A stretch of 64,000 bases of DNA from Diadema antillarum (lineage: Eukaryota): positions 124,001-188,000 of the forward strand of contig NW_027271821.1 of NCBI RefSeq assembly GCF_040938485.1, read 5' to 3'. The position numbers are program-made. Shown here one piece after another: positions 33,601 to 52,100 of this stretch. How positions within the stretch are numbered: position 1 is the stretch's first letter; every line of letters begins with the position of its first letter.

Positions 33601-34825
33601 TTTTTAAATGTTAGCATGTATTTTGTGCTCAAACACAAAACTGCTTTGCTTGGATCGTGAGGATGTTGATACCGTACCGCTATCTCAAGGCGGATGTCAG
33701 AGTTCCTCTGTGATGGGTTAGCTAATTTGTCCCCTTGGAAAGGGACCGCCTCTCTATTCAAACAAAATGGAGCTATCGCTGCCATAGTGCTTTGGGAAAA
33801 AAAAAAGTCTCTAATAAAAGCTATTCTGATTTTTTTTTTAAAGACTCTATGATAGTTTCCTACAATAGTAAAAGTTAAATACCATGATGACGAGATGGCC
33901 ACTGTCAAGAAATTGCCGCTAGTGAGACTTCGTGAGAATCAAATTTTTCTTTGTGACTCAACAAGAATTGTTCCAAGTGATTTCCAATATTTTGGTATAG
34001 TGTAGGCCCTATGAAAGTAAACTGTTCAAAGTTTAATCAAATGACCAAGAATATAGCTTCCAGACATTTTGTCGCTGTTCCGACAAAAAGATACTTCATG
34101 AAGGATCGAGTCACGCTTTTGTAAACATTTTACTTAAAACTTTGGGACTCTGCGTGTGGTGCTTTCTTTTGTTCAAGTATTTGACGCTTCGCCTTATTCT
34201 TATGATTTATTCATAATTACCGAGTAGATATCACTCTTAATCGTCATTATGAACATGTAACAACTTCTATAGAGACATATATAAAAAAAGAAGATATTGG
34301 TTCCCAGCACATAGCCCTTGTACCTTCAGCAGAATAAGGGTGTTGCATTTTTTTTCATCGTTTTTTAGAGGCGACAAGGAATATGGAAAGAGAAACGCCT
34401 GCTCAGCGATGCATCGGTGTTTTATGACAGATGTTACATTCAATATATCAATGTTACACCCACCTGTCACATTTTTCTTCACGGTATCAATAATAGAAGT
34501 CAAATTGCTTCTTTTCTTGCTCTAAAACCCCGCCATGTTTAACTGCTGACGAATGCACAGGTCTACCCATTTCTTCACATGTTGTTGCTCGCATTCATTT
34601 TGCAAATCGATTTCACACTTCAGATATCGCTTCCGACCTATGATTCTTCGCGACGTCTCGAACAGAGATATTTCGACCACGATACTGGGTCACCGAATCG
34701 CCTTTCCTTGTTGCATCTCGCCCTCGGCTTTCCACAAGGGTGCGCATCCTGATGGGGAGTTGGCCACTGCGAAGGGTAAGAATAATAAAATGATATATGA
34801 AATATAAGATATTATATATACACTG

Positions 34826-34884
<59 letters not shown>

Positions 34885-49100: not shown

Positions 49101-52100
49101 TATTCAAGTGTTTTGCACAAGTAGCCCTACACATTAATGTTGTGGCTGCTCTCGAATCTGTACATTATCTGTATAGCACAGCGCTTTTCTTTTCTACTAC
49201 AGGCGAGATGGCACGCGAGGCTGCGGCGGCTGGGGTAGACGGGATCTTGGTCTCGGCTCACGGCGGCAGGCAGCTGGACTCGGTCATAGCCCCGGTTCGA
49301 AAATCATGATTGTACATGCAAATTATCTAATTAGCATTTATATCAGTGCATTGCTACCCGACTTTTAGTTTTACTTTTTTATGTAGAACAGGCCAAGGTT
49401 ATCTTATGGAATCGATTTTATCGTGGCAATCAATTAGAACCTTTAAACTAGTTCTAATCTCCTAGCTTACACTGCATTTTCATCTTTATTCATTTTTTGT
49501 CGGTTTTCATCATTTTCTGCATGCATTTTCTTATTATTATCCTTTTATCATATTATTTGAGAATTGTCATTTCCCTATCTTCATTGATTGCGTCTTAATC
49601 ATATCCAGTCTTGATTCGGGATGAATGGTCGATGACAGTTCCTCATCATCAACTGTCATCTAAATATTATATCTACTCTCTAACACTAGCTTGATGCCCT
49701 ACCGGAAGTGGTGGAAGCTGCATGTGGTACCAACGTAGAAGTTTACGTTGATGGAGGCGTGCGTACTGGAGCGGACATCCTCAAGGCACTCGCCCTAGGA
49801 GCCCGGGCCGCCTTCATCGGCAGGCCGGTGATATGGGGACTTGCATGTGGAGTAGGTTTGACCCTTTCTGTCCAGTTGCCAACGCATCTATACGAGATGA
49901 CATCAGGATTTTAGGATGGTGATCCAACAAGGGTTAATTGACAGAAGTGAGGAGGACGGGGGAAGGTCTTGACCCAAAGGCTCAAGAATTTGGGAATTGA
50001 AATGATAATGTTCATGTGTCTGGTATGCTTTGGTACCTGTGTCAGCATGATGAAGTCTGGAATAGCGTGTTTTGAGATCAATAAGAACCATTAGGAGCAG
50101 GGGAGGGGGGGGGGGTTTCAAGTGATATCTGAATTCTGAATCCTTCCATAGCCTCCAATAAGCAAACTGTTTCAAAATTATAATTGGTTCGTTCTTAATG
50201 AAAATATACGTCAATGTACTCAAGAAATGAAAAGAGAGAAGGTTAAGAATAGAAATAATTGCATGGAATAGTGATCATTCATGTTGTCGACCTTTACTCT
50301 CAAATATCCACAGTGTATCAGACATCGGATTTGGGAGCAGTGTTCACCGAACACTGAACATTGTCCTCATTACAAAAATGGCCTTTACAGTCTTCTGGAT
50401 GTTTCCTGTAATTGTCCATGTCTTTTTCTTTTTCTTTTTTTGTAGGGGGAAACAGGAGTAACAGAAGTCCTAGACATTCTAAAAGATGAATTCAGCCGAG
50501 CCATGGCATTGACAGGTATGTTATGATATACGTATACCTCCGCGGAGGATGATATAACTTGAAATGGAATTTGCTGTTATAAGTAAACATAGTCATCCTG
50601 TGTTTTTTCTTCTGTCTTTAAAATGGATTTAAAGTAGCACCTGATTAAACTTGCTTGTTGTATTTTACTCAAGTACGATTGCATCTGTGCTCGAGTTTTT
50701 AAATTGGTGTTGTTTCTTGATTTCTTTTCTACGACGGATGAAAAATCACGTGCCCGTTTTTTATGTTATGCTGAAAAAAAAATGTATATGAATTCGTATT
50801 TAAAACACCCCTCCTTACTACATTTTATTTTCCTTGGATTTGGAAGTAACACCTATTACAACTGTGTTGCTTTAATCGACAGGTTGTGCCAGCGTTGGAT
50901 GTATTGACAGGTCTCTCATCGTGGATAAAACCAAGATTAGCCGATTATGAAAATGCTTAGTATACGAATCTAAAGGGGACAAAGATGGGTTGTCTTATTT
51001 GTCCTGCTGCTTGTTCCAGAAGTCACATTATTCCTTCAAGATCGTGTTGAATAATGAATTTTAGAGGTGACACGTGTTATGATTGAAAATCTTGACATAT
51101 CACCAAAATGCCTAATGACGTATTTGTTTTTGTGTAAGTGAGTGATTGTGTATATGCTTAATACGATTGTTATGTAATGGCACGACAACACTGAGGTATC
51201 ATTGTAATTAGCGAATTGCTCGAGGGCTTTCTGTGACCTCTGCAATGATATTCCGAGATTCCATATCTAAGCTGTGGAAGCCAGCCATGCTTTATTTTGT
51301 TTTTGCTTGTTTGTTTTTGTTTTGTTTTGTTGTTTTTCTATGTATGTTATAGTCTCCTCAACACTAACACTCTTCTACCTGTTTATAACATTTCTGCGGT
51401 ATCAAAAGTTATACATTAGAATTGTGTAATGGTTCTTACAGGGAAAGAAGGTTGAAGGTATATAGGTACAATTATTGAAGTTAAGGGTGAGGTGGTCTTC
51501 AGGGTTTCATGGTCCAGTAAGTCGAAGTGTAATGCTTAGGAGGATGAATGCAGGTTTAGTAATTGAAGAAAACACATTTCAATAGACAGATTTAAGAGAC
51601 AGTTTATCAAAATTCCATTTATCTTGGTTTATAATAATGATATGATGAGATTGTAGAATGAGCGGGTACATGGATTTAGTGTCAACCATCACCCCTGATC
51701 ATACTGGTATAAGCTTTGAGTTTAGACATAATATAAAGAGAAGAATGATTGTGTGGTAAATAAATCATATTGGATGAATAAATGAAACACAATCATATCT
51801 TTATATGTGATAATGATGCGTTTTTTCGAAGAACTGTTAATTGAAACGGACAGACGGAAGTAAAGAAGAGGGAAGGGTTACGGGAAATAGAATATAAATT
51901 ATTACTTGTTAATTTTCTTGAAATGAATCTGAGAGATTATATGCCATAGCAAATATTCACATGCAAAGTCGAAGGAGAAGAAGAGTAGAGGCGTTTCCCG
52001 TCAAAAAGAAGTTCTCGGGACCGGCAGTTTCCTTCCGTTGTACAGAAATACAATTTACTGATAGTGTTGGGTCTGAATATTTACTTCGTTGTAACTTCAA

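What the first reader, a model, noticed from the sequence alone, without database searches (positions are those of the whole stretch)
34624..49851. Exon-by-exon mosaic identity between the HAO paralogs suggests gene conversion that spares the substrate-specificity exons
Seen: exon 6 is identical for its first 67 nt (5 differences in 92). Exon 7 has 11 differences in 162. Exon 2 has 6 differences in its last 124 nt but 8 in its first 28. In contrast, exon 3 is only about 32/57 identical in amino acids, exons 1, 4 and 5 are similarly diverged, and no intron similarity is evident. Near-zero synonymous divergence is not explained by protein-level selection alone. Established: exons 6-7 carry the FMN/catalytic core (His, Arg, DGGVR), while exons 3-5 include substrate-pocket residues and the variable lid loop. 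Inference: recurrent interlocus conversion homogenises the core while divergent selection protects specificity.
Basis: partly seen in the sequence, partly recalled or inferred. Interest (0 to 1): 0.65.

Follow-up and report, generated by a model that had tools for sequence, protein, structure and literature searches.

The report
Exon-confined gene conversion between tandem HAO genes
Two old, neighbouring hydroxyacid-oxidase genes are nearly identical in three of their nine exons, most likely because those exons were copied between the genes, a well-known process seen here in a new gene family.

Summary
Two tandem nine-exon FMN-dependent 2-hydroxy-acid oxidase genes lie on the + strand: A at 32925-40491 and B at 45021-50950.

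Synonymous divergence is 0.18-0.37 in exons 2, 6 and 7, against 0.95-2.4 in the other six. Codon usage, amino-acid composition and protein conservation do not explain the difference. Inside exon 2 the synonymous pattern changes sharply while the protein stays conserved.

Short-tract interlocus gene conversion is the best explanation (about 0.6). The claim that divergent selection "spares" exons 3-5 is not supported:
- Seven of eight intron pairs show no similarity, which is the opposite of the opsin-type signature.
- dN/dS in the diverged exons is 0.10-0.32.
- The three low-divergence exons are simply the three most conserved in the family, so loss of homology is enough to explain the rest.
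- "Near-zero" synonymous divergence holds only for 67 nt of exon 6.

This is a known kind of event and of modest interest.

The parts
32925..40491 (+). Copy A, HAO-like gene with 9 exons: E1 32925-33073, E2 34624-34775, E3 36327-36498, E4 37011-37116, E5 37881-38050, E6 38834-38925, E7 39456-39617, E8 39935-40004, E9 40424-40491 (stop TAA; last residues SRL)
   Evidence: GT-AG at every intron. Each exon is open in the expected phase once the extra base in E3 is skipped. Pfam FMN_dh is matched collinearly by 7 of 10 exon pieces.
45021..50950 (+). Copy B, HAO-like gene with 9 exons: E1 45021-45163, E2 46184-46335, E3 46482-46652, E4 47309-47414, E5 48422-48591, E6 49203-49294, E7 49690-49851, E8 50446-50515, E9 50883-50950 (stop TGA; last residues SRL). 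1134 nt of exons in all, and the frame stays open.
   Evidence: Pfam FMN_dh is matched by 8 of 9 exons, profile positions 1-335 in order. The best solved relatives are HAO1, HAO2 and plant glycolate oxidase.
34652..34780 (+). Low-divergence tract 1 in copy A (exon 2 nt 29-152 plus 5 intron bases). Its partner in B is 46212-46340.
   Evidence: 6 differences in 124 exon nt, against 8 in the preceding 28 nt. Codons 10-50 have 36/40 identical codons, against 2/8 in codons 1-9 (Fisher p 4e-4, cut chosen after seeing the data). The blastn match ends at +5.
38819..38900 (+). Low-divergence tract 2 in copy A (15 intron bases plus exon 6 nt 1-67). Its partner in B is 49188-49269.
   Evidence: 0 differences in the first 67 exon nt, then 5 in the last 25. 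The blastn match starts 15 nt upstream of the exon. 13 of the 20 bases just upstream are identical.
39456..39617 (+). Low-divergence tract 3 in copy A (exon 7; core nt 55-134 = 39510-39589). Its partner in B is 49690-49851.
   Evidence: 11 differences in 162 nt: 5 in nt 1-54, 1 in nt 55-134, 5 in nt 135-162.
36416..36420 (+). A5 run in exon 3 of copy A that holds one base more than the frame allows (+1 frameshift). Protein similarity to B continues on both sides in different frames.
   Evidence: Alignment. tblastn splits exon 3 into two frames. Stops appear downstream if the gene is read as assembled. All later exons are open if one A is skipped.
38926..39455 (+). Intron 6 of copy A, between the two low-divergence exons. 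It does not align with intron 6 of B (49295-49689) except for one AT-rich island, 39346-39396 against 49528-49571.

Best explanation
Two anciently duplicated, tandem (4.5 kb apart), same-strand 2-hydroxy-acid oxidase genes have exchanged sequence by short-tract interlocus (non-allelic) gene conversion. The exchange is limited to the three exons that are most conserved in the family. Everywhere else the copies are too different for a heteroduplex to form: introns are unalignable and the other exons are 58-79% identical. Tracts can therefore start and end only inside exons 2, 6 and 7, or at their very edges.

The sparing of exons 3-5 then follows from loss of homology and needs no selection. Shown here: the heterogeneity in synonymous divergence, its independence from codon usage and protein conservation, tract edges inside exons, and the lack of intron homology. 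Inferred: the conversion mechanism itself, its limitation by homology, and the number of events (at least three tracts).
For: (1) Pooled dS is 0.24 in exons 2/6/7 against 1.31 in the other six. dN is 0.024 against 0.30.
(2) Among identical, degenerate residues, codons are identical in 104/125 against 71/130 (Fisher p 9e-7). Four-fold sites differ in 15/77 against 28/59 (p 7e-4). A test over all 9 exons without chosen classes gives p 1e-4.
(3) Codon usage predicts 0.35-0.37 codon identity at saturation in these exons, against 0.83 observed. Stratified by amino acid, p is 6e-7.
(4) Conserved stretches of the other exons do not show the effect: 35/66 identical codons in runs of at least 4 identical residues, and exon 8 has 20/23 identical residues but 10/19 identical codons.
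(5) There is a change point inside exon 2 where the protein is conserved on both sides: 2/8 against 36/40 identical codons. Exon 6 behaves similarly: 20/21 against 4/7.
(6) The three exons score highest per residue on Pfam FMN_dh: 59.6 bits/50 aa, 37.3/30 and 74.7/54, against 14-37 bits for the others. They are the places where homology would last longest.
(7) No RNA family (0 Rfam matches in the window) and no unusually stable fold (z 0.75, 0.19, 0.04) offers another reason for silent-site conservation.
(8) A review of Caenorhabditis paralogues says that introns diverge faster and may block conversion by falling under the homology threshold, and that closeness of adjacent paralogues helps conversion despite divergence (PMC3966223, passages read).
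Against: - No orthologues could be compared, so the defining phylogenetic signature (converted exons grouping by species) is untested.
- The tracts stop within 5-15 nt of exon edges at three of six edges. A genomic-DNA donor would not respect those edges unless homology sets the limit.
- With tract divergence near 5%, any converted intron sequence should still align, and none does, except perhaps a 31-50 nt AT-rich island in intron 6.
- Without conversion these exons would be only about 83% identical (my estimate from the dN and pS). Recalled from the literature, not checked here, that is low for conversion to start, so one must assume conversion never stopped in them.
- GC3 is not consistently raised in the three exons (0.50-0.80 against 0.35-0.71 elsewhere), so there is no clear mark of GC-biased conversion.
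- The exon classes and cut points were chosen after seeing the data. Only the 9-exon and run-length tests are free of that.
Confidence: 0.6

Rival explanations
1. One reading: recurrent conversion would homogenise the whole gene pair, but divergent selection on substrate specificity removes converted alleles in exons 3-5 (and 1, 8, 9) and so keeps islands of divergence.
For: Exons 3-5 hold pocket positions that differ between the copies. The position of Trp110 of human HAO1 is Ser in B and Gly in A (plus the ungapped A/B alignment). The stretch that fails to align to the Pfam profile (positions 160-196) also lies there. The Tyr26 position in exon 1 is Tyr in B and Phe in A. Mosaic paralogues read this way are in print (abstract of PMC3728101).
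Against: - The introns flanking the 'protected' exons show no homology (7 of 8 intron pairs). The documented signature is low divergence in the introns with a peak in the exon (PMC3924837).
- dN/dS is 0.10-0.32 in the diverged exons.
- Exons 8 and 9 are spared too, with no known role in specificity.
- Copy A carries a frameshift.
Confidence: 0.15
2. No conversion. The silent sites of exons 2, 6 and 7 are themselves under strong purifying selection in both copies (splicing enhancers, RNA structure, an overlapping element or translational accuracy), so they kept their ancestral letters.
For: These are the most conserved exons of the family. The similarity stops at exon edges, as constraint on the mature mRNA would predict. 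The tracts are not identical: they differ by 5-7%.
Against: - Conserved stretches of the other exons show no such effect.
- Differences pile up at some exon ends (exon 2 nt 1-28, exon 6 nt 68-92, exon 7 nt 135-162). Recalled, not tested here: splicing-enhancer constraint is usually strongest at exon ends.
- The change point in exon 2 falls within conserved protein.
- The folds are not unusually stable and there is no Rfam match.
- Codon usage does not explain the pattern.
Confidence: 0.1
3. Conversion templated by spliced RNA or cDNA of one copy. This homogenises exons and leaves introns untouched, as proposed for fungal ribosomal-protein paralogues.
For: dS in three exons is far below the divergence of the introns, which cannot be aligned at all. 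That is the criterion used in PMC6993855 (section 'cDNA as the Probable Donor', passages read). Tract edges coincide with exon edges at the 3' end of exon 2 and the 5' ends of exons 6 and 7.
Against: - A cDNA tract should run across exon junctions. Instead the exon 6|7 junction is flanked by the more divergent parts (5 differences in the last 25 nt of exon 6 and 5 in the first 54 nt of exon 7).
- The tract at the 3' end of exon 2 does not continue into exon 3.
- Exons 3-5 between the tracts are untouched.
- Both genes keep all their introns.
Confidence: 0.07
4. Assembly or polishing artefact: reads of one paralogue were mapped onto the other in the most similar stretches, which made them more alike than they really are.
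For: The extra base in an A5 run in copy A is a typical homopolymer error. If it is one, the consensus is not perfect. The window also holds an N run at 57261-57408.
Against: The tracts are 67-162 nt long and flanked by unrelated introns, so ordinary reads spanning them would map uniquely. The tracts still differ at 22 positions, which is not what wholesale mis-polishing gives. It could sharpen the mosaic but could not create it.
Confidence: 0.05

Closest known systems
Interlocus (non-allelic) gene conversion between tandem paralogues with mosaic divergence, e.g. GOT1p1/GOT1p2 of the copepod Tigriopus californicus (PMC3728101, abstract read) and Caenorhabditis paralogues (PMC3966223, passages read)
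   Same: Adjacent same-strand duplicates. Segments of low divergence alternate with segments of high divergence, and silent sites are affected. Conversion is reported mainly for exons because introns fall below the homology threshold.
   Different: Here the background divergence is saturated (dS about 1 or more). The tracts are three single exons of 92-162 nt with no intron carried along. Only one genome is available, so neither polymorphism nor orthologues back the inference.
Primate red/green opsin genes and RNASE1 duplicates: selection against conversion (PMC3924837, passages read)
   Same: Paralogues in which some exons stay diverged while other parts are homogenised.
   Different: In those cases introns and UTRs are homogenised and the functionally important exon is the island of divergence. 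Here the introns are not homogenised at all, and the islands are islands of similarity.
cDNA-mediated conversion of fungal ribosomal-protein gene duplicates (PMC6993855, passages read)
   Same: Coding sequence has far lower silent-site divergence than the introns.
   Different: There the whole coding sequence is homogenised. Here only 3 of 9 exons are, and the tracts do not cross exon junctions.
Peroxisomal (S)-2-hydroxy-acid oxidases HAO1/HAO2 and plant glycolate oxidase (solved structures such as 2w0u, 3sgz, 1gox)
   Same: Pfam FMN_dh matches across exons 1-8. The Tyr132, Lys236, His260, Arg263 and DGGVR positions are kept in both copies. Both copies end in SRL.
   Different: The exons are only about 42% (exon 3, counted by hand) to about 75% (exon 7) identical to the mammalian enzymes. 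The Trp110 position is Ser (B) or Gly (A), and the Tyr26 position is Phe in A. Residue roles and numbers are recalled from the literature on these enzymes; the positions were read from the chain numbering in the calls.

Membership tests
FMN-dependent alpha-hydroxy-acid oxidase/dehydrogenase (Pfam PF01070 FMN_dh) | Sequence matches the family profile along its length | tested here: met
   Searched exon by exon. In B, 8 of 9 exons match at E<=1, in order over profile positions 1-335. Five of them pass the 24.9-bit cut-off alone: E2 59.6, E3 36.9, E5 31.0, E6 37.3, E7 74.7. In A, 7 of 10 pieces match; three pass the cut-off (E2 54.5, E6 38.3, E7 75.3) and E5 just misses it at 23.9. The joined protein was not searched.
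FMN-dependent alpha-hydroxy-acid oxidase/dehydrogenase (Pfam PF01070 FMN_dh) | Catalytic residues (human HAO1 numbering, roles recalled): Tyr26, Tyr132, Arg167, Lys236, His260, Arg263 | tested here: inconclusive
   Tyr132, Lys236 and His260/Arg263 (ungapped ranges) are present in B, and in A by the ungapped A/B alignment. Tyr26 is Tyr in B and Phe in A. Arg167 could not be placed: exon 4 found no solved relative and only a weak Pfam match for B (14.3 bits). Both copies do read GKRR there.
Peroxisomal HAO / glycolate oxidase subfamily | C-terminal peroxisomal targeting signal (PTS1; consensus recalled) | tested here: met
   Both copies end in Ser-Arg-Leu followed by a stop codon.
Peroxisomal HAO / glycolate oxidase subfamily | Oxidase activity on 2-hydroxy acids, and which substrates | not testable with these tools
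   Needs an enzyme assay. The Trp110 position is Ser or Gly, so a classical glycolate pocket is not assured.
Interlocus gene conversion | Segments between paralogues with significantly lower divergence than the rest, silent sites included | tested here: met
   (figures under Best explanation).
Interlocus gene conversion | Phylogenetic incongruence: converted segments group by species, the rest by paralogue | not testable with these tools
Interlocus gene conversion | Tracts ignore coding status and carry neighbouring non-coding DNA along | tested here: not met
   Similarity ends 2-15 nt outside the exons. Intron flanks are at the level of chance beyond 20 nt. 7 of 8 intron pairs show no local similarity. 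This fits conversion limited by homology, or an RNA template.
Interlocus gene conversion | GC-biased repair raises GC at silent sites of converted tracts | tested here: inconclusive
   GC3 (A/B) is 0.60/0.56, 0.67/0.80 and 0.56/0.50 in exons 2, 6 and 7, against 0.35-0.71 in the others.
Selection-protected islands of divergence under conversion (opsin type) | Homogenised introns or flanks around a diverged, functionally important exon | tested here: not met
   Introns 2-5 show no similarity. The criterion is taken from PMC3924837.
Selection-protected islands of divergence under conversion (opsin type) | Excess amino-acid change (dN/dS near or above 1) in the islands | tested here: not met
   dN/dS is 0.23, 0.26, 0.19, 0.23, 0.10 and 0.32 in exons 1, 3, 4, 5, 8 and 9. 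Pairwise values average over the whole history and cannot exclude short episodes.

The most novel reading that the evidence does not exclude
The three exon cores have stayed in continuous concerted evolution since an ancient duplication while all surrounding DNA escaped. Alternatively, they were homogenised through a spliced RNA/cDNA template. Either would make this pair a natural measure of how little homology (67-160 nt islands in otherwise unrelated DNA) is enough for ectopic conversion in an animal genome.
Probability: 0.25. Interest if true: 0.5.

Novelty: new member of a known kind. Interest (0 to 1): 0.3.

Why it matters
The pair shows how conversion can persist in small islands of homology long after two duplicates have otherwise diverged beyond recognition. 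Whole-gene trees or whole-gene dS for this pair would mislead: dating from exons 2/6/7 gives an age at least five times too young. For annotation, the two genes should be dated and classified from exons 1, 3-5, 8 and 9. The pocket differences (positions 26 and 110) and the possible inactivation of copy A deserve a check before either gene is called a glycolate oxidase. The process itself is well known.

Tried and rejected
- Codon bias as the cause: rejected.
- Amino-acid composition or degeneracy as the cause: rejected (four-fold sites; stratified test).
- 'Conserved protein implies conserved codons': rejected by the exon 8 and conserved-run controls.
- RNA structure or a known RNA family in the exons: no support.
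- A third HAO copy or stray exons in the window as donor: none at E<=0.01 (tblastn).
- One long tract spanning exon 6, intron 6 and exon 7: rejected, because intron 6 does not align. The AT-rich island there was tested only against plain shuffles and may be low-complexity chance.
- Transition/transversion ratio: 21:8 in exons 2/6/7 against 110:121 elsewhere (Fisher p 0.017). This fits low divergence but does not separate a young age from a slow rate, so it was not used.
- Different ages of the tracts: 0 differences in 67 nt of exon 6 against 17 in 286 nt in the other two tracts gives about p 0.02 by my own arithmetic, with limits chosen after seeing the data. It is too weak to claim recurrent events.
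It was replaced by a maximal-segment test. The best segment runs from the last codon of exon 5 to codon 44 of exon 7 (8 differing codons of 71, p 0.001). The second runs from exon 2 codon 10 to exon 3 codon 25 (6 of 50, p 0.06).
- Exon 4 against solved structures: no relative found.
- Literature: a full-text search for 'hydroxyacid oxidase' together with 'gene conversion' listed 2 papers, neither on this subject judging by title and abstract. I therefore know of no report of conversion in this family, within that one search.
- Not attempted: whole-protein fold, fold search, complex prediction, or any search with the joined coding sequence.
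Full report
**What is there.** The window is AT-rich eukaryotic DNA (G+C 0.34-0.47 in 2-kb steps) with one N run at 57261-57408, which I left alone. Two genes of the FMN-dependent 2-hydroxy-acid oxidase family lie head to tail on the + strand, 4529 nt apart. Copy A spans 32925-40491 and copy B spans 45021-50950. Each has nine exons with GT-AG introns at the same positions and phases. 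tblastn with the exon translations finds no third copy in the window at E<=0.01.

I do not take the contig for human. The exon translations are only about 42% (exon 3, counted by hand from the alignment) to about 75% (exon 7) identical to the human or rat HAO chains in the PDB. The two genes also sit in tandem, with introns of 146-1551 nt.

- Exon by exon, B matches Pfam FMN_dh in order over profile positions 1-335 (8 of 9 exons at E<=1, five above the 24.9-bit cut-off on their own).
- A does the same with 7 of 10 pieces.
- The best solved relatives are HAO1, HAO2/HAO3 and plant glycolate oxidase.
- Exon 4 found no solved relative.
- Both copies end in Ser-Arg-Leu, a peroxisomal targeting signal by recalled consensus.

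- Exon 6: 5 differences in 92 nt, none in the first 67.
- Exon 7: 11 in 162.
- Exon 2: 8 in the first 28 nt and 6 in the last 124.

blastn gives 91.2%, 92.7% and 93.5% identity for exons 2, 6 and 7. It gives 70-80% for exons 1, 3, 5, 8 and 9, and nothing for exon 4 or the introns apart from two tiny matches.

Nei-Gojobori estimates on whole in-frame codons are below. Three things were dropped before counting: the six split codons, the first 4 (B) or 6 (A) codons of exon 1, and one base of the A5 run.

| Exon | dS | dN | Identical residues |
|---|---|---|---|
| E1 | 1.19 | 0.27 | 26/43 |
| E2 | 0.37 | 0.018 | 48/50 |
| E3 | 1.19 | 0.31 | 31/56 |
| E4 | 2.37 | 0.44 | 17/34 (the middle is a variable loop and its alignment is unsure) |
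| E5 | 1.41 | 0.32 | 31/56 |
| E6 | 0.19 | 0.015 | 29/30 |
| E7 | 0.18 | 0.035 | 50/54 |
| E8 | 1.18 | 0.11 | 20/23 |
| E9 | 0.95 | 0.30 | 13/21 |

Pooled, dS is 0.24 in exons 2/6/7 against 1.31 in the rest. 'Near-zero' synonymous divergence is therefore true only of the first 67 nt of exon 6.

**Is it more than chance or codon bias?**

- Among residues that are identical and degenerate, the codon is identical in 104/125 in exons 2/6/7 against 71/130 elsewhere (Fisher p 9e-7).
- Four-fold sites differ in 15/77 against 28/59 (p 7e-4).
- Without choosing classes, heterogeneity over the nine exons has permutation p 1e-4.
- The longest run of identical codons is 22, against a maximum of 21 in 20000 permutations (all).
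- Codon usage predicts 0.35-0.37 codon identity at saturation in exons 2/6/7, against 0.83 observed. Usage was estimated from the diverged exons, from an unrelated intronless gene in the window, or from exons 2/6/7 themselves. A test stratified by amino acid gives p 6e-7.
- Protein conservation does not carry codon conservation with it. Exon 8 has 20/23 identical residues but 10/19 identical codons. In runs of at least 4 identical residues the diverged exons have 35/66 identical codons against 101/120.
- Inside exon 2 the first nine codons have 8 of 9 residues identical but only 2/8 codons identical, while codons 10-50 have 36/40 (p 4e-4, cut chosen after seeing the data).

**Introns.** Anchored comparison of the 80 nt on either side of every exon gives 1-11 identities per 20 nt. 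The one higher value is 13/20 just upstream of exon 6, in the pyrimidine tract. Local alignment of each intron pair against 60 shuffles gives z from -1.6 to 0.8 for seven pairs. Intron 6 gives z 5.4 for a 31-50 nt AT-rich island (39346-39396 against 49528-49571). The rest of intron 6 does not align.

The low-divergence tracts therefore end within 2-15 nt of the exon edge at three edges (3' of exon 2, 5' of exons 6 and 7) and inside the exon at the other three. Because introns 2 to 6 are not shared, at least three separate tracts are needed.

**Mechanism.** I take short-tract interlocus gene conversion, limited by homology, as the most likely cause (about 0.6).

The three exons are the three with the highest Pfam score per residue. 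They are where nucleotide similarity lasts longest, so they are the only places where strand invasion and re-annealing between these old duplicates can succeed. A review of Caenorhabditis paralogues states the same logic: introns diverge faster and may fall below the homology threshold, and adjacency favours conversion despite divergence (PMC3966223, passages). Walsh's idea of sequence-dependent escape from conversion is cited there; I recall it and did not read it.

Points against this reading:
- There is no phylogenetic test.
- Some tract edges are oddly exact.
- GC3 is not clearly raised.
- Without conversion the exons would be only about 83% identical by my estimate. That is a poor substrate, so conversion would have had to continue without a long break.

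**Rivals.**

- *Silent-site constraint (0.1).* It fits the exon-limited pattern but not the controls above or the clustering of differences at some exon ends. Neither Rfam (0 matches) nor folding (z 0.75, 0.19, 0.04) gives it a basis.
- *A spliced RNA/cDNA template (0.07).* It would explain untouched introns, as argued for fungal ribosomal-protein genes (PMC6993855, passages). But the tracts do not cross the 6|7 or 2|3 junctions.
- *A polishing artefact (0.05).* It could sharpen the mosaic but not create it.

The model case for selection against conversion has homogenised introns and a diverged exon (opsins; PMC3924837, passages). Here the introns next to exons 3-5 are as foreign to each other as any. 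dN/dS in the diverged exons is 0.10-0.32. Exons 8 and 9 are 'spared' as well.

The division into core and specificity exons is also loose. Using recalled human HAO1 numbering, with positions read:
- Tyr132 lies in exon 3 and Lys236 in exon 5.
- His260 and Arg263 lie in exon 6, and DGGVR in exon 7.
- The pocket does differ between the copies. Position 110 (Trp in HAO1) is Ser in B and Gly in A. Position 26 is Tyr in B and Phe in A.

Functional divergence is therefore possible, but it is not what the mosaic demonstrates.

**Copy A is broken as assembled.** Exon 3 of A is 172 nt against 171 in B. An A5 run at 36416-36420 holds one base too many, and similarity to B continues in another frame. Read as assembled, the downstream exons run into stops. 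With one A skipped, every exon is open. The start codon, all splice sites, the catalytic positions listed above and the SRL end are intact. This is either a homopolymer error of the assembly or a very young inactivation, and I cannot tell which.

**What stayed unchecked.** The second refutation criterion, per-exon trees with orthologues, could not be run. One full-text search for 'hydroxyacid oxidase' with 'gene conversion' listed two papers, neither on this subject by title and abstract. Supplementary files of the papers cited were not seen; none bears on the counts given here.

**Verdict.** It is best read as exon-confined gene conversion between old tandem duplicates. This is a new example of a known process and of modest interest.

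Noticed in passing
window 36416-36420 (exon 3 of copy A): An A5 run holds one base more than the reading frame allows, so copy A is frameshifted as assembled. Everything else about the gene looks intact. It is either a homopolymer error or a very recent pseudogene.
   Followed up: partly
window 34907-35165 and 35501-35759 (intron 2 of copy A): Inverted repeat with 259-nt arms, 90% complementary, 335 nt apart. It looks like a foldback or MITE-like insertion and accounts for much of the size difference between intron 2 of A (1551 nt) and of B (146 nt). A (TA)n microsatellite at 34793-34895 lies between it and exon 2.
   Followed up: no
window 33012-33014 (A) / 45102-45104 (B), and 36365-36367 (A) / 46520-46522 (B): Pocket positions differ from mammalian HAO1 and between the copies. 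The Tyr26 position is Phe in A and Tyr in B. The Trp110 position is Gly in A and Ser in B. Neither copy may be a classical glycolate oxidase. Codon coordinates were worked out by hand from the exon starts.
   Followed up: partly
window 39346-39396 and 49528-49571 (intron 6 of both copies): The only intron similarity above shuffles (z 5.4) is a short AT-rich stretch at collinear places in the intron between the two low-divergence exons. It may be a remnant of an older, longer tract or low-complexity chance.
   Followed up: partly
window 18561-19637 (+): An uninterrupted 358-codon open frame with a signal-peptide-like start matches Pfam Metallophos (E 1e-18). It looks like an intronless acid-phosphatase-type gene.
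   Followed up: partly
window 15930-16301 (-): An open frame whose translation matches the N-terminal part of mitochondrial dihydroorotate dehydrogenase (best E 3e-11 to PDB 3u2o). It is probably the first coding exon of a DHODH gene running leftward.
   Followed up: partly
window 57083-57976 (-), beside the N run 57261-57408: A long open frame with no Pfam match in the part searched (57530-57976). It is flanked by an (ACACAG)n array at 57156-57260 that abuts the N run. It may be a repeat element. The N run was not touched.
   Followed up: no
window 8072-8148: A perfect (AAC)25.7 microsatellite.
   Followed up: no
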